NCBI GenBank assembly: GCA_026004495.1
Contig: BPJG01000001.1
Location: forward strand, 70,470 to 134,469
Source: Candidatus Parcubacteria bacterium
GTDB lineage: Bacteria; Patescibacteriota; Minisyncoccia; UBA6257; HR35
Reading direction: 5' to 3'
Length of the DNA: 64,000 nt
Shown here piece after piece: positions 2 through 55,308 of this stretch. Positions within the stretch are counted from its first letter, which is position 1. Each line of letters starts with the position of its first letter. The notes under the pieces were generated by a model. It was not told the DNA's origin. It saw nothing but the letters and a program-made list of their open reading frames with translations, and ran no database searches. The position numbers were made by a program, and so were the translations under genes.

Positions 2-235
2 CTTCAAGGCTTAGCAGATGAAAGAAATGAATCAGTCAAAAAATTAATTAGTGAAGTAATTAGAAAATGTAAAGAAAAAGGAAAATATGTAGGAATTTGC
101 GGACAAGCACCAAGTGATTTTCCAGAAATTGTTGAATTATTGGTCAAAGAAGGAATTGAAAGTCTAAGTGTTAATAGCGATGTAGTGGTTAAAACGATTG
201 AAATGGTTAAAAAATTTGAAGATGAAAATAAATGA
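2..235 (+). CDS. 3' end of a PEP-utilizing enzyme (PEP synthase / pyruvate phosphate dikinase C-terminal domain), partial at the window edge
   Basis: Frame 2 translates to ...KGKYVGICGQAPSDFPEIVELLVKEGIESLSVNSDVV..., matching the conserved C-terminal PEP-binding domain (GICGQAPSD). It ends at TGA 233-235. Confidence 0.55.
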   Translation, partial: LQGLADERNESVKKLISEVIRKCKEKGKYVGICGQAPSDFPEIVELLVKEGIESLSVNSDVVVKTIEMVKKFEDENK

Positions 236-1502
236 TATAAAAGTAAATAAAATTTTAGACTCAAGAGGAGAATGGACAATTGATATTGAAATTGAAAGTG
301 AAGGAATAAAAGAAAAAGCCTCAATCCCTTCTGGAAAAAGTATTGGCTCTCATGAAGTTGTTTGTTTAGATTGTGAAAAAATTAAAAAGAACTTAGATGA
401 ATTGTTGAAAGATATAAAAAATAATGATTTTCAAAATCTAAAAGAATTAGATGAATTTTTAATTAAAAGAGCAGGGAAGAATAAAGAAAAATTAGGAGGT
501 AACTTTACTTTAGGAATTTCAATTAGTTTTGCTCGCGTTTTGGCTAAAAGCAAAAATTTGGAGTTGTTTGAATATTTAAAGAACGAATATGCTCTAATAA
601 TAGAAGATGAATTTAGACAAATACCAAGATTAATTTTAAATATTATTGGTGGTGGAGTACATTCTTTTAATAATTTAGATTTTCAGGAATATTGGTTGGT
701 GACGCAGAACTACGCTGAACTGACGCAGAACTACGCAGACAATAATAAAACGCAAACCAATGCGAACTATAAGCTAAATAACGCTAAATTTCAGGTGAAC
801 TTATCCGAAGGAGAAAATTATTATGAAACGCAAAGCGATAAGAACTTAATGCGACTCAAAGCAAATAAATATGAATTTCTTATTTTTTTAATCATAGAAA
901 TCATAAATATTATTAATCAACTTGAAAATAAACTACCTAAACCATTAGGAAGAAATGATGAAGGAGCATTTTGTACAAACTTTAGTGATGATTATGAACC
1001 ATTTTTATATTTAAAAGAAGTTAATAATTTTGAACTTGGAGCTGATATTGCCGCTAATCAAATAACAAAGGTAGTTAATTGGGAAAATGTTTATCGCAAA
1101 CTAAAAATTTTGGGTGTTAAATATTTAGAAGATCCTTATAGAGAAAATGAATTTGAAAAATTTGCTGAACTTCGAAAAGAAGGATTTAAAGTAATTGGCG
1201 ATGATTTAACAGTGACCAATATTGAAAGATTAAAAATTGCCTTAGATAAAAATTCTGTTGATGGTGTAATTGTTAAACCTAATCAAATTGGCACCATAAC
1301 TGAAGCATTTAATTTTGTTAAATTAGCCAAAACAAATAATTTATTTACAATTTTTTCTCATCGAAGTGGAGAAACTAATGATAATTGGATAATTGATTTA
1401 GGAATTGCTTTTGGAGCAGATTATTTTAAAATTGGTGTTCCTTTACAAGGCGAAAGAGTGGCAAAATATAATAGACTTTTAGAGATTTATGGTAAAATTT
1501 AA
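198..1502 (+). CDS. eno: Enolase (phosphopyruvate hydratase) carrying an in-frame repeat insertion around 700-790
   Basis: N-terminus INDIKVNKILDSRGEWTIDIEI...SIPSGKSIG. C-terminus SHRSGETND...GERVAKYNRLLEI. Internal NDEGAF matches enolase. The likely true start is ATG 222, which overlaps the upstream stop. Confidence 0.88.
   Translation: MKWLKNLKMKINDIKVNKILDSRGEWTIDIEIESEGIKEKASIPSGKSIGSHEVVCLDCEKIKKNLDELLKDIKNNDFQNLKELDEFLIKRAGKNKEKLGGNFTLGISISFARVLAKSKNLELFEYLKNEYALIIEDEFRQIPRLILNIIGGGVHSFNNLDFQEYWLVTQNYAELTQNYADNNKTQTNANYKLNNAKFQVNLSEGENYYETQSDKNLMRLKANKYEFLIFLIIEIINIINQLENKLPKPLGRNDEGAFCTNFSDDYEPFLYLKEVNNFELGADIAANQITKVVNWENVYRKLKILGVKYLEDPYRENEFEKFAELRKEGFKVIGDDLTVTNIERLKIALDKNSVDGVIVKPNQIGTITEAFNFVKLAKTNNLFTIFSHRSGETNDNWIIDLGIAFGADYFKIGVPLQGERVAKYNRLLEIYGKI
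700..790 (+). repeat. GC-rich dispersed repeat copy, in-frame inside eno (encodes TQNYAELTQNYADNNKTQTNANYKLNNAK)
   Basis: ACGCAGA-type motif repeated. The core 731-764 (CTACGCAGACAATAATAAAACGCAAACCAATGCG) matches copies at 1976-2010 and 2551-2585. Local GC is much higher than the surroundings. Confidence 0.7.
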
Positions 1503-1552
1503 TGATTTATATTAAAATTTAATTAAGGTCGAATTAAAAAAAATTTTAAAAA

Positions 1553-1951
1553 ATGACTTCAGATTATATTCTTTTACTTTCAAGAGTGATTTTAGGTCTT
1601 TATTTTTTATTTAGTGGTTTTGCTCATTTTAAAAATTTAAATATGATGTCGCAGTATGCTCAAAGTAAAAATGTGCCAGCTCCTAAATTGGCTGTTATTG
1701 TTACAGGTCTTTTACTTTTAGTTGGTGGTCTTTCAATTTTACTTGGTGCTTATATTCAAGTCGGGGTTTTAGCTTTAACAATTTTCTTTTTACCTGTTAG
1801 TTTTATGATGCATAATTTTTGGACTGTTCAAGATCCACAAATGAAGATGATGGAAATGATTAATTTTATGAAAAATATGGCTATCTGGGCAGGAGTTTTA
1901 GCTTTACTTTTTATCCCTCAGCCTTGGCCATTCAGTCTTAGTTTGTTCTAA
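1553..1951 (+). CDS. DoxX family membrane protein
   Basis: 132 aa with 4 TM helices. LGLYFLFSGFAHF and the overall pattern are typical of DoxX. Confidence 0.65.
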   Translation: MTSDYILLLSRVILGLYFLFSGFAHFKNLNMMSQYAQSKNVPAPKLAVIVTGLLLLVGGLSILLGAYIQVGVLALTIFFLPVSFMMHNFWTVQDPQMKMMEMINFMKNMAIWAGVLALLFIPQPWPFSLSLF

Positions 1952-1960
1952 TTTACGGTT

Positions 1961-2062
1961 ATAGACTAACGCAGACAATATTAAAACGCAAACTAATGCA
2001 AGCTGATGCGGCTAATGAAGGTATTCGCAACGGTTCGCGTGAAAGTTCGCATAGGTTCGCGA
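1961..2062. repeat. Intergenic copy of the GC-rich dispersed repeat (CTAACGCAGACAATATTAAAACGCAAACTAATGCA), followed by a GTTCGCG x3 tract
   Basis: Sequence identity of the core to copies at 731-764 and 2551-2585. Three GGTTCGCG repeats at 2032-2062. Confidence 0.7.
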
Positions 2063-2072
2063 CAAATAAAAA

Positions 2073-3941
2073 ATGAAGATATTAATTTTAGGTGGAGGAT
2101 TTGGAGGTACTTATACTTTAAAACATTTGCATAAGTTTTTTCATAATAAGAAGAAAGTAAAATTGGTATTGGTAAATAAAAAGAATTATTTTATTTTTAC
2201 GCCTTTGCTTCATGAAGTCGCTACTGGTGGAGTTTCAATCGATAATGCTTTAGAACCTATAAGAGAAATTATTAAATGTTGCGATTTTGATTTTATCCAT
2301 GGAGAAGTTGAAAAAATTGATTTAGAAAATAAAGTTGTTTATATAAATAAAGAAAGAGAAAATTATAATGTTGATTACGATTATTTAGTTATTGCTTTAG
2401 GTTCAAAAACAAATTATTATAATATTACAGGCGCTAAAGAATTTACCTTTTCTTTAAAAACAGTTGATGATGCCATAAGGCTGAAAAATAGATTTGTTCA
2501 TATGTTTGAATTAGCGAGTGTAGCGCAGACCTGCGCAGACTACACGCAGACTAACGCAGACAATATTAAGACGCAGACTGATGCGAACTACACGCAGGCT
2601 GATGCAGGCAATAATGTAGTGCAGACTAATGCAGAAAACAACGAGAATTTTCTTTATGAAGATTTAAGCTATAAAATTATAGGAATAGCTTATAAAATTA
2701 AAAAGAATTTAGGATTGGGACATAAAGAAAAAGTTTATACGAATTCCCTTGAACTTGAACTTAAAAAAGAAAATATCATTTATAAAAGAGAGGAAAAAAT
2801 CAGCGTGGTATATGATGGAAAAATAGTAGGAAACTATATACCAGATTTTGTAATAGAGGATAAAATTATTGTGGAATTAAAAACACTCCCCTTAATAGAT
2901 GAGAAGACAAAAAAGCAAATCTGGAATTATTTAAAGGGAACTAAATATAGACTTGCAATTTTGATTAATTTTGGCAAGAAAGATGTGGAAATATCTAGGA
3001 TAATTTATGATAAAGCAAGAAATTCTAATAGTCAGCAAGAGTCTGCGTCCAGTCAGAAGGTTGATAATAATGAAAGTCTGCAAAAGTCCGCGTCCAGTCT
3101 GCAAAAGTCTGAGTCTAATAAATATTTAACTTTTGTCATTGTCGGAGGTGGAGCAACTGGAGTTGAACTTGCTGGTGAAATGAGTGATTTGTTTTATAAA
3201 ACATTTAGTAAATTATATTCATCAGATTTAATTTCACAAGTTAAAATAATTCTAATCGAAAAAGGCAAAGAATTAATTCCTCAATTTTCTCCAAAATTAA
3301 GACAAAAAGCACTTGAAAGGTTAAAAAAATTAAAAGTTGATATTAGATTGGAAAGAGGAGTAATTGAAGTTGGTGAAGATTTTATTAAACTTGATGATGG
3401 TAATGTTATCGAAACAAAAACAGTTATTTGGGCAGCAGGAGTTGAAACTAATTTACCAGAAATTATTGGCAAGGTTGAAAAGGATAATAAAGGAAGATTA
3501 GTTGTAAATGAATATCTACAAGTAAAAAAGAAAATAGATATGTTAAGTCAGCAAGAATCTGCGTTAAGTCAGCAAGAGTCTGCGTACGATAATGTTTTTG
3601 CCATTGGTGATGTTTGTTGTTTTATTCAAGACCAAAAGCCTTTGCCACAATTAGCTCAAGTTGCAGTTAGACAAGTAAAAACAGTTTCTTTAAATATTAA
3701 AAATTCGATTGAAAATAAGACTTTACAAAAATTTGCTTACAAACATACTGGTGATTTAATTTCAGTTGGTAGATTTTATGCCCTAGGAGAAATTAAAGGA
3801 GTTGAATTTTCAGGTTTAATTAGTTGGTTTATTTGGAAAGGAGTTTATTTAAGCAAAATTATTTCTTTTCGAGATCAAATCAAAACATTTATTGATTGGC
3901 TTTTGAATTTATTTTTACCCAGAGATATTACTGAATTATAA
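2073..3941 (+). CDS. ndh: Type II NADH:quinone oxidoreductase (NDH-2). It is interrupted in-frame by a ~200-aa insertion (2519-3122) and a 14-aa repeat insertion (3542-3587)
   Basis: N-terminus MKILILGGGFGGTY...FTPLLHEVATGG. Second Rossmann motif LTFVIVGGGATGVELAGE. AIGDV near the C-terminus. At 622 aa it is about 200 aa longer than a typical ~420-aa NDH-2. Confidence 0.8.
   Translation: MKILILGGGFGGTYTLKHLHKFFHNKKKVKLVLVNKKNYFIFTPLLHEVATGGVSIDNALEPIREIIKCCDFDFIHGEVEKIDLENKVVYINKERENYNVDYDYLVIALGSKTNYYNITGAKEFTFSLKTVDDAIRLKNRFVHMFELASVAQTCADYTQTNADNIKTQTDANYTQADAGNNVVQTNAENNENFLYEDLSYKIIGIAYKIKKNLGLGHKEKVYTNSLELELKKENIIYKREEKISVVYDGKIVGNYIPDFVIEDKIIVELKTLPLIDEKTKKQIWNYLKGTKYRLAILINFGKKDVEISRIIYDKARNSNSQQESASSQKVDNNESLQKSASSLQKSESNKYLTFVIVGGGATGVELAGEMSDLFYKTFSKLYSSDLISQVKIILIEKGKELIPQFSPKLRQKALERLKKLKVDIRLERGVIEVGEDFIKLDDGNVIETKTVIWAAGVETNLPEIIGKVEKDNKGRLVVNEYLQVKKKIDMLSQQESALSQQESAYDNVFAIGDVCCFIQDQKPLPQLAQVAVRQVKTVSLNIKNSIENKTLQKFAYKHTGDLISVGRFYALGEIKGVEFSGLISWFIWKGVYLSKIISFRDQIKTFIDWLLNLFLPRDITEL
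2519..3122 (+). mobile_element. In-frame insertion module: left ACGCAGAC-type repeats (2519-2645), a GxxExxY / PD-(D/E)XK-like domain (about 2649-3020), then right inverted GTCTGCGT-type repeats (3031-3116)
   Basis: The domain sequence FLYEDLSYKIIGIAYKIKKNLGLGHKEKVYTNSLELELKK...IPDFVIEDKIIVELKTL...KQIWNYLKGTKYRLAILINFG matches the GxxExxY family. The flanks are reverse complements of each other (ACGCAGAC versus GTCTGCGT). The host NDH-2 resumes exactly in frame. Confidence 0.5.
3542..3587 (+). repeat. Tandem 21/22-bp repeat (GTTAAGTCAGCAAGARTCTGCG x2) inserted in-frame in ndh, encoding LSQQESALSQQESA
   Basis: Direct tandem duplication. It contains the TCTGCG(T) motif shared with the 3031-3116 repeats. 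Confidence 0.65.
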
Positions 3942-33428: not shown

Positions 33429-33456
33429 TTGACAAATTTTTTTATTGAGGTATAAT
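33429..33456 (+). promoter_or_regulatory. Sigma70-type promoter for tandem unit 1 (TTGACA, 16-nt spacer, TATAAT)
   Basis: Both hexamers match the consensus: 33429-33434 and 33451-33456. Confidence 0.55.
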
Positions 33457-33462
33457 TATTAT

Positions 33463-33527
33463 CGGCTCTAACCCCTATGTCCTCGTCTCTGATATGGAAT
33501 GGAAGCTCCTGCTTCCATTTTTTTTTA
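33463..33527 (+). ncRNA. Candidate small RNA, unit 1 (a ~60-nt transcript ending in an intrinsic terminator)
   Basis: Consensus promoter, then a ~37-nt unique core, then a GGAAGC-TCCT-GCTTCC hairpin and a T9 run (33501-33526). Confidence 0.35.
33495..33527 (+). terminator. Rho-independent terminator (hairpin GGAAGCTCCTGCTTCC plus T-run)
   Basis: A 6-8 bp GC-containing stem with a 4-nt loop, followed by TTTTTTTTT. Confidence 0.6.
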
Positions 33528-33576
33528 TTCGTGTATTAAATTTAGATTTTCATGATATAATAATTAAAAAAATATC

Positions 33577-33604
33577 TTGACAAATTTTTTTATTGAGGTA
33601 TAAT
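33577..33604 (+). promoter_or_regulatory. Sigma70-type promoter for tandem unit 2 (identical to unit 1)
   Basis: TTGACA 33577-33582 and TATAAT 33599-33604. Confidence 0.55.
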
Positions 33605-33610
33605 TATTAT

Positions 33611-33672
33611 TAGTCTTGCCATAACCGTATCCGAATCACCTAAATTTGGAAGCTCCTGCTTCCATTTTTTTT
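33611..33672 (+). ncRNA. Candidate small RNA, unit 2 (diverged core, identical terminator)
   Basis: Same architecture as unit 1. The core is TAGTCTTGCCATAACCGTATCCGAATCACCTAAATT. Hairpin 33648-33663 and T-run 33665-33672. Confidence 0.35.
33642..33672 (+). terminator. Rho-independent terminator of unit 2
   Basis: GGAAGCTCCTGCTTCC followed by T8. Confidence 0.6.
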
Positions 33673-33767
33673 ATTCGTGTATTAAATTTAGATTTACATG
33701 ATATAATAATTAAAAAATAAAACTTTTTATGTTTTTAAATAAATTTTATAATATAAAAAAATAGAAA

Positions 33768-55081: not shown

Positions 55082-55152
55082 CGGGGTGTAGTATAGCGGC
55101 AGTACGCACCCTTGGGGTGGGTGTAGGCCGGGTTCAATTCCCGGCACCCCGA
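55082..55152 (+). tRNA. tRNA-Pro (anticodon GGG)
   Basis: Acceptor CGGGGTG/CACCCCG, anticodon stem CACCC/GGGTG with loop UUGGGGU, T-arm CCGGG-TTCAATT-CCCGG. Confidence 0.8.
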
Positions 55153-55308
55153 AAAATATTAGTAAAAAGATAAAATAGTAAATATATATAAAATATAATA
55201 AAAATATAAATATAAAATAAGATATTTTTATTAATTATTTTTTAGTTCGCAAAAGATATATTTTGCGAACTAAAAATTAAAGCTAAAATTAAATAAAATA
55301 TCCCTTGA

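What the first reader, a model, noticed from the sequence alone, without database searches (positions are those of the whole stretch)
700..2586. Dispersed GC-rich repeat family that inserts in-frame into housekeeping genes (eno, ndh) and into intergenic DNA
A ~35-bp core recurs three times in 2 kb with near identity: CTACGCAGACAATAATAAAACGCAAACCAATGCG at 731-764 inside eno, CTAACGCAGACAATATTAAAACGCAAACTAATGCA at 1976-2010 (intergenic), and CTAACGCAGACAATATTAAGACGCAGACTGATGCG at 2551-2585 inside ndh. In eno the element adds about 30 aa (TQNYAELTQNYADNNKTQTNANYKLNNAK) at a position where canonical enolases have none, and the frame stays open. The repeats are about 50% GC in a ~25% GC genome. This resembles Rickettsia palindromic elements that colonise ORFs in-frame. 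It is possibly a new family in this lineage.
Basis: seen in the sequence. Interest (0 to 1): 0.7.

Follow-up and report, generated by a model that had tools for sequence, protein, structure and literature searches.

The report
Nuclease-carrying repeat element inserted inside genes
The GC-rich repeats in enolase, NDH-2 and the spacer between them are the arms and leftovers of a selfish DNA element that carries a small nuclease gene and sits in frame inside essential genes of tiny "candidate phyla" bacteria, apparently translated with its host protein and not spliced out, a way of living inside genes that I could not find described.

Summary
In detail: ACGCAGAC occurs 7 times in the window against 0.02 expected, all within 700-3600. 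The repeats are arrays of 10-11-nt units. In ndh they form two inverted arms (2514-2639 and 3021-3122) around a complete, catalytically intact GxxExxY PD-(D/E)XK nuclease domain (PF13366). This 609-nt cassette is in frame with NDH-2.

A syntenic relative (L006) has none of the four inserts, and other relatives carry different inserts at the same loops. Of 75 GxxExxY genes from many phyla, 51 are flanked by such inverted arrays, against 0 of 68 control flanks.

The relatives closest to the window's nuclease form one clade on a rough tree. They sit in frame inside RecG (8), LepA, LeuRS and others, and 0 of 12 have a stop codon after the domain. The core is read in all three frames, which points to conservation at the DNA level. 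The cysteine-coding frame is absent.

The architecture matches 23S rRNA intervening sequences such as Coxiella's (AGAAG terminus, tandem repeats, ORF, inverted stem). My best reading is an IVS-like selfish element adapted to translated, non-splicing, in-frame residence, with arm-only derivatives that behave like Rickettsia palindromic elements. How it moves is inferred, not shown.

The parts
222..1502 (+). Enolase gene (host gene 1). The likely start is the ATG at 222; the mechanical ORF starts at the TTG at 198.
   Evidence: Pfam Enolase_N and Enolase_C and TIGR01060. It is 77-79% identical to the L005 and L006 enolases. The PDB alignment breaks at aa 162 and resumes at aa 300.
702..878 (+). 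In-frame insert in enolase, 177 nt or 59 aa, where the relative L006 has 7-8 aa. Bases 702-789 are a forward-only array of about 7 units (ACGCAGAACT type). Bases 790-878 are unassigned sequence with 2 degenerate units.
   Evidence: D4; period 10, 3.7 copies. The second half has no significant similarity to the nuclease.
1963..2066 (+). Intergenic copy between DoxX and ndh. It has a forward half (ACGCAGAC, ACGCAAAC) followed by reverse-type units (GTTCGCG x4). It is a decayed hairpin with no ORF.
   Evidence: D1, D13, I25; orientation ++----. The spacer is 3 nt in L006 and holds a different, well-folding hairpin in L005. The window copy folds no better than shuffles (z -0.34 and 0.10).
2073..3941 (+). 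NDH-2 (type II NADH dehydrogenase) gene, 622 aa, host gene 2. Orthologues without inserts are 404-411 aa.
   Evidence: Pfam Pyr_redox_2 and NDH2_C. Identical to P0067 of MAG KatS3mg094. Orthologue alignment A1.
2514..2639 (+). Left arm of the ndh cassette: about 9 forward units ([AT][CG]GCAGAC at 10-11-nt spacing), translated as VAQTCADYTQTNADNIKTQTDANYTQADAGNNVVQTNAENN.
   Evidence: AF2 pLDDT 53-60, coil. It pairs with the right arm.
2640..3020 (+). GxxExxY / PDDEXK_3 nuclease domain in frame with NDH-2. It has no start or stop codon of its own, and the family's conserved residues are intact (GHKEKVY, PDF, ELK).
   Evidence: PF13366 E 8.7e-34 and TIGR04256 E 4e-35. Invariant columns of A3 and A5. 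AF2 pLDDT 97-99. Foldseek matches to lambda-exonuclease and Cas4-like PD-(D/E)XK folds are weak.
3021..3122 (+). Right arm of the ndh cassette: reverse-complement units (GTCTGCGT, GTCCGCGT, GTCTGCA), translated as NSNSQQESASSQKVDNNESLQKSASSLQKSESNK.
   Evidence: (D2, D3, I1, I4, I15). Left arm plus right arm folds at -76.7 kcal/mol, z -5.1.
3530..3584 (+). Second in-frame ndh insert (site D): a reverse-type array only, 2 x 21 nt (LSQQESA x2). It is shared with the 88%-identical orthologue P0068, absent in L003 and L006, and replaced by a full hairpin in L005.
   Evidence: D2, D3; period 21, 95% matches.

Best explanation
The repeats are the arms, and the arm-only derivatives, of a selfish DNA element. 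Its complete form is [array of 3-9 tandem 10-11-bp units with core ACGC(A/G)GAC] - [GxxExxY PD-(D/E)XK nuclease ORF] - [the same array inverted]. This is the architecture of bacterial 23S rRNA intervening sequences, with a nuclease as cargo in place of the four-helix-bundle S23p protein.

One clade of these elements, to which the window's ndh copy belongs, has adapted to living inside protein-coding genes. It has lost its own start and stop codons. Its arms are open in the host frame and encode hydrophilic, probably disordered linkers (T-Q-T, N-A-D on the left; S-A, S-x-R on the right). The whole cassette is translated as a looped-out extra domain in a loop of the host protein, with no RNA or protein splicing.

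The eno insert, the intergenic copy and the second ndh insert are non-autonomous or decayed copies: hairpins, single arms or footprints. They behave like RPEs or MITEs.

Shown: the anatomy, the insertion polymorphism, the link between arms and nuclease, strict frame continuity and DNA-level conservation.

Inferred: the nuclease binds the one-per-helical-turn arrays and drives spread, by homing into arm-only or empty sites or by a transposition-like step. It is also inferred that the host proteins stay functional.
For: - Anatomy in the window: an intact GxxExxY domain between inverted arrays, in frame in ndh. The arms pair in register, z -5.1.
- True insertions: the syntenic L006 has enolase of 377 aa, NDH-2 of 411 aa and a 3-nt DoxX-ndh spacer. 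NDH-2 orthologues of 60-88% identity carry presence/absence inserts of several sequence flavours at 4 loop sites.
- Arms and nuclease are one unit: 51 of 75 GxxExxY loci from many phyla have the same 6-mer at least twice on each flank in inverted orientation, against 0 of 68 control flanks. Unit spacing peaks at 10 (66 cases), 11 (25) and 9 (20). Sister nucleases on the tree share core motifs.
- An in-frame clade: the loci closest to the window's nuclease sit inside RecG (8, all at one site between helicase motifs II and III), LepA, LeuRS and a glycosyltransferase-like ORF, with host sequence in frame on both sides. On a rough NJ tree they form one clade.
- Lost start and stop: 0 of 12 embedded copies have a stop within 15 codons after the domain and 2 of 12 have an ATG near its start. 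For stand-alone copies the figures are 64 of 68 and 61 of 68.
- Many hosts: 66 long proteins chosen from the best 150 of 8101 library hits (nearly all listed hits of 196 aa or more with one matched stretch) carry the domain together with host families such as GTP_EFTU, RecG/DEAD, GT1, transketolase and GatB; 44 families matched in all, related host families counted separately.
- DNA-level conservation with peptide-level filtering: the forward core is read in all three frames (24, 17 and 6 cases). The reverse core is read in two frames (20 and 19), and the frame that would give V-C-V is absent.
- Linker behaviour: AF2 gives pLDDT 97-99 for the nuclease core and 53-67 for the arms.
- Tolerated in coding DNA: 27 of 28 array clusters in loci of this lineage are spanned by an open frame of at least 150 codons. 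L005 has 10 clusters in 21 kb and L006 has none. Further in-frame hairpins occur in UvrB-like, ValRS-like and NifS-like genes, as judged from their sequence motifs.
- IVS link: the Coxiella 23S IVS has AGAAGA followed by tandem GACAGAT repeats upstream of the S23p ORF, and inverted repeats (PMC4990558). Stand-alone GxxExxY elements end in (T)AGAAGCG on both sides. A PF05635 ORF in L003 is flanked by inverted TAGCTAGTAG arrays.
Against: - There is no transcript or protein evidence that the cassette is translated or that the host enzymes work.
- One lepA copy (L002) has an in-frame TAA inside the nuclease while the host frame is preserved. That fits a pseudogene or a sequencing error, but also removal of the insert before translation.
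- The arms can form a long stem like those RNase III cuts in rRNA IVSs.
- None of 40 stand-alone GxxExxY loci lies in an rRNA gene, so the IVS link rests on architecture only.
- No target-site duplication or defined cleavage site was found, and nuclease activity and specificity are untested.
- Many arrays are single-orientation (eno; L003 site A; L008 site B), which a simple hairpin-MITE model does not predict.
- Within this window the family is confined to 3.6 kb. The rest of the 634-kb genome could not be scanned.
- Only about 9 of 120 metagenome contigs with triple CGCAGAC arrays have a GxxExxY gene within 400 nt.
Confidence: 0.7

Rival explanations
1. RNA-level intervening sequence. The arms pair in the transcript, and the stem is cut (by RNase III as in rRNA IVSs, or by the encoded PD-(D/E)XK enzyme acting on RNA). 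The exons are then re-joined, or the host protein is made in two pieces. In either case the insert is absent from the mature protein.
For: The arms form a stable in-register stem (-76.7 kcal/mol, z -5.1). Hairpin copies in relatives fold with z -6.3 to -2.3. The architecture matches the Coxiella IVS, which RNase III excises. L002 has a stop codon inside the nuclease while the host frame is kept. The PD-(D/E)XK superfamily includes tRNA-splicing endonucleases (PMC3424549 abstract; weak Foldseek hits).
Against: Splicing would not require frame continuity, yet 12 of 12 embedded copies are open and in frame on both sides. None has a stop after the domain, against 64 of 68 stand-alone copies. Frame usage in the arms avoids the Cys/hydrophobic frame and under-uses the Arg-rich one, which implies the arms are translated. 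Single-arm inserts cannot form the stem. To my knowledge no bacterial pathway that re-ligates mRNA in this way has been described.
Confidence: 0.12
2. A plain RPE-like or MITE-like palindromic repeat family. The repeats are the mobile unit, they are moved by some unrelated transposase, and the nuclease in ndh is incidental cargo or a coincidence.
For: Arm-only copies outnumber nuclease-bearing ones. In-frame insertion into unrelated housekeeping genes is what is described for RPEs (PMC10969869). Hairpin copies fold significantly.
Against: Inverted arrays flank 51 of 75 GxxExxY genes against 0 of 68 controls, and the core motif tracks nuclease relatedness. The same left arm - nuclease - right arm layout recurs in RecG, LepA, LeuRS and NDH-2. 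Many copies are not palindromic.
Confidence: 0.1
3. Host-beneficial protein insertions. The low-complexity hydrophilic segments and the extra nuclease domain are adaptive features of these proteins, for example in thermophilic CPR bacteria, and arose by slippage or domain fusion, not from selfish DNA.
For: The inserts sit in loops next to conserved motifs and keep the frame. A nuclease domain inside RecG could conceivably have a function.
Against: The same DNA core occurs in intergenic DNA, in both orientations and in all three reading frames. The inserts are presence/absence polymorphic among close orthologues. The same nuclease sits in functionally unrelated hosts: NDH-2, LepA, LeuRS, glycosyltransferases and GatB.
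Confidence: 0.04
4. A local event only: a duplication or gene conversion confined to the eno-ndh neighbourhood of this genome, or an assembly artefact.
For: In the 64-kb window all copies lie within 700-3600.
Against: Related arrays occur in other genes and genomes: L001, L002, L003, L005, L008, L010-L021, and at least 120 metagenome contigs. The ndh protein with its insert is identical in the public MAG record.
Confidence: 0.02
5. An intein-like element removed by protein splicing.
For: It is an in-frame nuclease-containing insert next to conserved motifs of essential genes, which is the classic niche of inteins. A true intein sits in the PPDK gene of relative L005.
Against: Pfam finds no Hint or intein-splicing domain in the ndh protein. 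The junction residues are variable linkers with no conserved Cys/Ser/Thr or His-Asn. Arm-only inserts have no protein domain at all.
Confidence: 0.02

Closest known systems
Rickettsia palindromic elements (RPEs), and prokaryotic MITEs that insert in frame
   Same: Short, non-autonomous, DNA-level repeats found inside unrelated housekeeping genes in frame as well as in intergenic DNA. They add a peptide segment in places the host protein tolerates (PMC10969869). Hairpin copies in relatives are palindromic.
   Different: RPEs are about 150 bp, specific to Rickettsia, and each is described as encoding a conserved peptide. No cognate enzyme gene is mentioned in the review consulted. Here the unit is a 10-11-nt tandem repeat read in all three frames. 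Copies may be one-armed. An autonomous version carries a PD-(D/E)XK nuclease between the arms.
Bacterial 23S rRNA intervening sequences (IVS) with an S23p / four-helix-bundle ORF (Coxiella, Leptospira, Xanthomonas, Brucella)
   Same: Same architecture: an AGAAG-type terminus, tandem short repeats (GACAGAT x3 in Coxiella), a small ORF, and inverted repeats that form a stem. Distribution is sporadic and copy number of the repeats varies (PMC4990558). A PF05635 ORF with the same kind of flanking arrays occurs in relative L003.
   Different: IVSs lie in rRNA helices and are excised by RNase III without re-ligation. Their ORF is S23p and was reported as probably not expressed in vivo. Here the cargo is a GxxExxY nuclease, the host is a protein-coding gene, the element is in frame and apparently translated, and none of 40 stand-alone GxxExxY loci was in an rRNA gene.
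Inteins with homing-endonuclease domains
   Same: A nuclease-containing insert in frame, expressed only through its host gene, located next to conserved motifs of essential genes (between RecG motifs II and III; before the DTPGH motif of LepA; before GGGATG of NDH-2), and recurring at the same site in different lineages.
   Different: There is no Hint or splicing domain and no conserved junction residues, so the insert most likely stays in the protein. It is bounded by DNA repeat arrays and has arm-only derivatives.
REP/REPIN elements and their RAYT transposases (from my own knowledge, not tested here)
   Same: Many short non-autonomous repeats, plus a cognate enzyme gene flanked by the same repeats in inverted orientation.
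   Different: RAYTs are HUH/Y1 transposases acting on single-stranded hairpins in extragenic DNA. Here the enzyme is a PD-(D/E)XK nuclease, the repeats are tandem arrays with one unit per helical turn, and the copies live inside coding DNA.
Mobile GC clusters of yeast mitochondria, including in-frame clusters in var1 and the translationally bypassed 'byp' elements of Magnusiomyces (from my own knowledge, not tested here)
   Same: GC-rich short mobile inserts inside protein-coding genes of a very AT-rich genome.
   Different: Those occur in mitochondria, have no associated nuclease cassette, and byps are skipped by the ribosome. Here the frame stays open and the peptide-level frame bias argues for translation.

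Membership tests
GxxExxY protein family (TIGR04256 / Pfam PF13366 PDDEXK_3) | Full-length match to the family profile above the curated cut-off | tested here: met
   PF13366 116.8 bits (cut-off 22), profile positions 2-117 of 117. TIGR04256 120.7 bits (cut-off 35), positions 2-116 of 116.
GxxExxY protein family (TIGR04256 / Pfam PF13366 PDDEXK_3) | Conserved G-x-x-E-x-x-Y, P-D and E-x-K residues present | tested here: met
   GHKEKVY, IPDF and VELK are present. They fall in the invariant or near-invariant columns E30, Y33, D69, E79 and K81 of A3.
GxxExxY protein family (TIGR04256 / Pfam PF13366 PDDEXK_3) | PD-(D/E)XK fold | tested here: met
   The AF2 core has pLDDT 97-99 with alpha-alpha-beta4-alpha-beta2 order. 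The best Foldseek matches are lambda-exonuclease-like, Cas4 (SSO0001) and RecE-like nucleases, but they are weak (TM about 0.35, E 3e-4). No solved structure matches by sequence.
Rickettsia palindromic elements (RPE) | Sequence membership in one of the RPE families of Rickettsia | not testable with these tools
   No RPE consensus sequences were available. The source is a Parcubacteria MAG, not Rickettsia.
Rickettsia palindromic elements (RPE) | A palindromic element of about 100-150 bp that folds as a hairpin | tested here: inconclusive
   Hairpin copies in L005 fold with z -6.3, -5.1 and -3.1. The window's intergenic copy does not (z -0.34), and the eno copy has forward units only.
Rickettsia palindromic elements (RPE) | Each element encodes one conserved peptide (one reading frame) | tested here: not met
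   The forward core is read in all three frames (24, 17, 6) and the reverse core in two (20, 19).
Rickettsia palindromic elements (RPE) | In-frame insertion into unrelated housekeeping genes | tested here: met
   Enolase, NDH-2, PPDK, Sua5, DUF72, a MetRS-like ORF, and UvrB-, ValRS- and NifS-like ORFs judged by their motifs.
Bacterial rRNA intervening sequence (IVS) | Located in a 23S (or 16S) rRNA helix | tested here: not met
   The window copies lie in eno, in ndh and in a spacer. There is no rRNA in the window, and none at 40 stand-alone GxxExxY loci.
Bacterial rRNA intervening sequence (IVS) | Terminal inverted repeats that form a stem enclosing the ORF | tested here: met
   The ndh arms pair at -76.7 kcal/mol, z -5.1. 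Inverted arrays flank 51 of 75 loci.
Bacterial rRNA intervening sequence (IVS) | AGAAG-type terminus followed by tandem short repeats upstream of the ORF (as in Coxiella) | tested here: inconclusive
   Seen in stand-alone relatives L020, L022, L028 and L030 and comparable to Coxiella. Not seen at the junctions of the in-frame copies.
Bacterial rRNA intervening sequence (IVS) | ORF of the S23p / four-helix-bundle family (PF05635) | tested here: not met
   The cargo here is PF13366. A PF05635 ORF with analogous arrays exists in relative L003.
Bacterial rRNA intervening sequence (IVS) | Excision from the transcript by RNase III | not testable with these tools
   This needs RNA data.
Intein | Hint / splicing domain with conserved N- and C-terminal splice residues | tested here: not met
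   Pfam finds no intein or Hint domain in the 622-aa protein. Junctions are variable low-complexity linkers.
MITE / transposon with a cognate enzyme | Terminal inverted repeats shared between autonomous and non-autonomous copies | tested here: met
   The same core units occur in the nuclease-bearing copy (ndh site C) and in arm-only copies (eno, spacer, site D; L005, L008).
MITE / transposon with a cognate enzyme | Target-site duplications | tested here: inconclusive
   Filled and empty sites were compared and no clear duplication was seen. The junctions are blurred by replaced loop codons and possible footprints.

The most novel reading that the evidence does not exclude
These are a previously unrecognised class of gene-resident selfish element: nuclease cassettes bounded by tandem-repeat arms that colonise loops next to conserved motifs of essential genes (RecG, LepA, LeuRS, NDH-2, GatB, glycosyltransferases and others). 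They persist by being translated through as a looped-out domain. This would be a third way for a homing-type nuclease to live inside a gene, alongside introns and inteins, and it needs no splicing. The abundant arm-only inserts would be its non-autonomous progeny, and 23S rRNA intervening sequences would be the same element family landing in rRNA.
Probability: 0.5. Interest if true: 0.9.

Novelty: new variant of a known kind. Interest (0 to 1): 0.85.

Why it matters
If this reading holds, four things follow.

- It gives the widespread GxxExxY/PDDEXK_3 family a biological context. The family had 8101 hits in the representative library and its function is listed as unknown (PMC3424549).
- It offers a unifying picture for the long-unexplained rRNA intervening sequences, as one landing site of a broader family of repeat-armed cassettes.
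- It shows that essential enzymes of genome-reduced CPR bacteria may tolerate inserts of 200 aa. That bears on annotation, since these genes look over-long or fused. It also bears on using insert presence or absence as strain markers, and on protein engineering, since the sites are naturally validated permissive loops with natural linkers.
- It raises a testable question: how can a nuclease spread into coding DNA without a splicing mechanism?

Tried and rejected
- Exact look-up of the ndh protein found no contig. The source was identified through the homology search instead.
- Folding the window's intergenic copy gave no signal (z 0.10 and -0.34). I treat it as a decayed hairpin.
- I compared the second half of the enolase insert (790-878) with the nuclease cassette, the L005 insert and the L001 element. 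Scores were at the level of shuffles, so it remains unassigned.
- An HMM search of the six-frame translations of the window and of loci L001 and L003-L008 for further GxxExxY domains found only the ndh copy and the L001 copy. A phmmer search with the L003 four-helix-bundle protein matched only L003 and L004 convincingly; one window ORF gave a marginal hit (E 0.001) that I did not pursue.
- A combined alignment of NDH-2 and GxxExxY sequences for a full-length structure prediction misaligned the nuclease homologues (17-23% identity). I abandoned it and modelled only the 203-aa insert.
- A profile search of PDB sequences for GxxExxY found nothing.
- Rfam found only 4 tRNAs in the window, and no rRNA context at 40 stand-alone loci.
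- CysRS next to ndh was checked for hidden inserts and has only a 7-aa indel.
- A script computing arm duplex energies timed out. I replaced it with strand folding.
- The metagenome scan for triple CGCAGAC arrays returned a mixed set. Many are solo or intergenic arrays in mid-GC contigs, and a few are unrelated coding tandem repeats such as L138. I did not use it for frame statistics.
- Literature searches for GxxExxY, PDDEXK_3, and in-frame insertions or inteins in CPR or Parcubacteria found no description of this phenomenon.
- Intein, group I/II intron and ribosomal-bypass readings were considered and rejected. There is no Hint domain, some inserts are as short as 54 nt, and the frame stays open.

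Full report
**Observation**

The window is 24% GC. Its NDH-2 protein is identical to hypothetical protein KatS3mg094_069 of a Candidatus Parcubacteria MAG, on a 634-kb contig.

ACGCAGAC occurs 7 times against 0.02 expected from shuffles. A 42-nt family has copies at 727-768, 1963-2004, 2548-2589 and 2596-2637. The arrays are 46-47% GC.

Several corrections are needed.
- The intergenic copy lies about 10 nt upstream of the stated position.
- The repeating unit is 10-11 nt, with TRF periods of 10, 11 and 21.
- Reverse-complement copies (GTCTGCGT) exist at 3021-3122 and 3530-3584.
- All copies in the 64-kb window lie between 700 and 3600.

The ndh ORF (2073-3941, 622 aa) contains a complete GxxExxY / PDDEXK_3 nuclease domain. 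It scores E 8.7e-34 against PF13366 and E 4e-35 against TIGR04256, over the full profile length.

The forward array at 2514-2639 and the inverted array at 3021-3122 flank this domain exactly. Together they make a 609-nt in-frame cassette. The two arms can pair in register: -76.7 kcal/mol, z -5.1 against shuffles. The family's conserved residues are intact (GHKEKVY, PDF, ELK).

An AlphaFold model of the 203-aa insert gives pLDDT 97-99 for the nuclease core and 53-67 for the arms. Its nearest solved folds are lambda-exonuclease-like and Cas4-like PD-(D/E)XK nucleases, but the matches are weak. No solved structure matches by sequence.

**The inserts are insertions, not conserved loops**

A syntenic relative, L006 (GCA_017880035.1), has the same PPDK-eno-DoxX-ndh order. 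Its enolase is 377 aa, its NDH-2 is 411 aa and its DoxX-ndh spacer is 3 nt.

Against this reference the window has four inserts.
- A 59-aa insert in enolase (702-878).
- A roughly 105-nt insert in the spacer.
- The 203-aa cassette in ndh.
- An 18-aa insert at 3530-3584.

NDH-2 orthologues of 60-88% identity range from 404 to 622 aa. They carry presence/absence inserts of several sequence flavours at four loop sites.
- The 88%-identical P0068 lacks the cassette, shares the LSQQESA insert and has its own forward array at another site.
- L005 has a full hairpin where the window has only a reverse arm.

Solved homologues have 8 residues where the window's NDH-2 has 199. The enolase alignment also breaks at the insert.

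A scan for clusters of core units found the following.
- 5 family clusters in the window, plus one small hairpin at 55245-55270 that is probably unrelated.
- 10 in 21 kb of L005, in PPDK, enolase (3), the spacer, ndh (2), Sua5 (2) and DUF72.
- 2 in L003, 3 in L008 and 3 in L001.
- None in L006.

27 of these 28 clusters are spanned by an open frame of at least 150 codons. Hairpin copies in L005 fold significantly (z -6.3, -5.1, -3.1, -2.3). The window's spacer copy does not (z -0.34).

**The arms and the nuclease are one unit**

I fetched 80 genomic loci encoding GxxExxY relatives from many phyla. Of the 75 with enough flanking sequence, 51 have the same 6-mer at least twice on each flank in inverted orientation. 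Control flanks shifted by 400 nt gave 0 of 68.

Unit spacing peaks at 10 nt (66 cases), 11 nt (25) and 9 nt (20), which is about one helical turn. The core differs between clades: CGC[AG]GA[CAT], CACGAAT, CGCTAAT, GCGAAA, CACAGAT and ACGAAT. Sister nucleases on the tree share the same core. Stand-alone copies end in (T)AGAAGCG on both sides.

**A clade adapted to living in frame**

The loci closest to the window's nuclease are embedded in long host ORFs, with host sequence in frame on both sides.
- RecG in 8 loci, always between DEQHRFGVxQR (motif II) and MTATPIPRT (motif III).
- LepA just before LNLIDTPGH, the same site as P0002, P0003 and P0004.
- LeuRS.
- A glycosyltransferase-like ORF that carries two nuclease inserts.

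On a rough NJ tree without bootstrap support, all embedded copies plus L001 form one clade, and the LepA copies cluster together.

Embedded copies have lost their own translation signals.

| Copies | Stop within 15 codons after the domain | ATG near the domain start |
|---|---|---|
| Embedded | 0 of 12 | 2 of 12 |
| Stand-alone | 64 of 68 | 61 of 68 |

A search of 1.84 billion representative proteins gave 8101 hits. Most of the best 60 or so are long proteins with the domain inside them. I took 66 long proteins from the best 150 hits, nearly all listed hits of 196 aa or more with one matched stretch, and scanned them with Pfam. Their host families include GTP_EFTU/LepA (8), GT1 (8), RecG/DEAD (8), transketolase (3), GatB (2), GT2 and Wzy_C. 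In all 44 families matched, with related host families counted separately.

**Translated or removed?**

Several points favour translation through the insert.
- Frame continuity on both sides in 12 of 12 frame-blind tblastn hits is not expected for an intron-like element.
- The forward core is read in all three frames: 24 as T-Q-T, 17 as N-A-D and 6 as R-R. The conserved feature is therefore the DNA, not a peptide.
- The reverse core is read in only two frames, 20 as S-A and 19 as S-x-R. The frame that would give V-C-V is never used. This bias towards small hydrophilic residues is what selection on a translated linker would produce.
- Unit spacing in embedded copies is almost only 10 or 11 nt, which keeps shifting the frame from one unit to the next.

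Three points count against it.
- The lepA copy L002 has an in-frame TAA inside the nuclease while the host frame is preserved.
- The arms can form a stem like those that RNase III cuts.
- There are no RNA or protein data.

**Comparison with what is known**

The Coxiella 23S rRNA IVS is described as AGAAGA followed by three tandem GACAGAT repeats upstream of the S23p ORF. It has inverted repeats, is excised by RNase III and has an unexplained origin (PMC4990558). That is the same layout as the stand-alone elements here.

In relative L003, a PF05635 four-helix-bundle ORF is flanked by inverted TAGCTAGTAG arrays. However, none of 40 stand-alone GxxExxY loci lies in an rRNA gene, so the link is architectural only.

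RPEs share the in-frame behaviour, but they are described as about 150 bp and as each encoding a conserved peptide (PMC10969869).

Inteins share the niche but require a Hint domain, which is absent here.

PDDEXK_3 is listed with unknown function (PMC3424549). Six literature searches found no description of in-frame GxxExxY cassettes. That library lacks most subscription-journal papers, so this absence is not proof of novelty.

**Mechanism**

Shown:
- The anatomy of the cassette.
- The insertion polymorphism.
- The coupling of arms and nuclease.
- Frame continuity.
- DNA-level conservation with peptide-level filtering.

Inferred:
- The nuclease recognises the phased arrays.
- It promotes spread, either by cutting arm-only or empty sites and copying the cassette in through arm homology, or by a transposition-like step.
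- The arms act as flexible linkers that let the nuclease loop out of the host fold.
- Single arms and short remnants are decay products. Examples are TCGCAGAG at site C of L003, forward-only arrays in eno, and site A of L003.

I found no target-site duplication.

**Unexplained**

- The second half of the enolase insert (790-878) matches nothing.
- The family is confined to 3.6 kb of this window.
- Many arrays have a single orientation.
- At least 120 metagenome contigs carry three CGCAGAC units at 10-11-nt spacing. Only about 9 have a GxxExxY gene within 400 nt. Some of the others are in-frame hairpins in UvrB-like, ValRS-like and NifS-like genes, as judged from their sequence motifs.

**Verdict**

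The RPE analogy is right about behaviour but wrong about anatomy.

The best-supported reading (confidence 0.7) is an IVS-like, nuclease-bearing selfish element adapted to translated, in-frame residence in housekeeping genes, together with its arm-only derivatives. I rate it a new variant of known kinds of element (in-frame MITEs and RPEs, rRNA IVSs, and gene-resident homing nucleases), with high interest.

Noticed in passing
window 33430-33700: Two tandem units of about 143 nt. Each has a TTGACA...TATAAT-like promoter followed by a short transcript that ends in the hairpin GGAAGCTCCTGCTTCC plus a T-run. This may be a pair of small RNA or leader genes.
   Followed up: no
window 55244-55272: A hairpin AGTTCGCAAAAGATATATTTTGCGAACT downstream of the tRNA at 55082-55152. 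It looks like a terminator but uses the same TGCGAAC core as the eno and spacer arms.
   Followed up: partly
L005 1-3476 (GCA_026004515.1): The PPDK gene of this relative carries a true intein (Pfam Intein_splicing plus LAGLIDADG) and, separately, an in-frame hairpin array of 8+4 units at 2536-2675. Two kinds of gene-resident element share one gene.
   Followed up: partly
L003 15600-16070 (bacterium HR35): A four-helix-bundle '23S rRNA IVS protein' ORF (PF05635) sits directly upstream of a 1154-aa gene. It is flanked by inverted tandem arrays TAGCTAGTAG / CTACTAGAT, the same architecture with a different cargo and core.
   Followed up: partly
L014 1879-4464: One glycosyltransferase-like host ORF carries two nuclease inserts: the GxxExxY cassette and, upstream, a second more divergent GxxExxY-like domain with different linkers.
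   Followed up: no
L002 159-1028 (ENA lepA fragment): A lepA cassette has an in-frame TAA (702-704) where relatives have Tyr, while the host frame is preserved beyond it. This could be a pseudogene, a sequencing error, or a hint that the insert need not be translated.
   Followed up: partly
P0002 (LepA fragment, aa 205-261): The right junction is duplicated: QRNSAQVEGVILNLID ... QRNSAQIEDYVLNLID. This may be a tandem or target-site event at the cassette's right end.
   Followed up: no
L001 7005-7360: Directly after a stand-alone GxxExxY element at the 3' end of rbfA lies a 102-aa ORF with no Pfam hit. It is followed by an array of ACGAAT units (AACGAATACC AACGAATTTACT AACGAATGGC AACGAAT), which may be a second, different cassette.
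   Followed up: no
L003 versus L004 (same organism, two assemblies): Gene lengths differ between the two assemblies: ATP synthase subunit a is 229 aa against 264 aa, and an unannotated ORF is 429 aa against 529 aa. This may be further insert polymorphism.
   Followed up: no
L090-L209 (metagenome contigs): At least 120 contigs carry three CGCAGAC units at 10-11-nt spacing, where my own rough estimate of the chance expectation is about 2. Most are in mid-GC contigs, outside long ORFs and with no GxxExxY gene nearby, so the arrays are far more widespread than the nuclease-bearing copies.
   Followed up: partly
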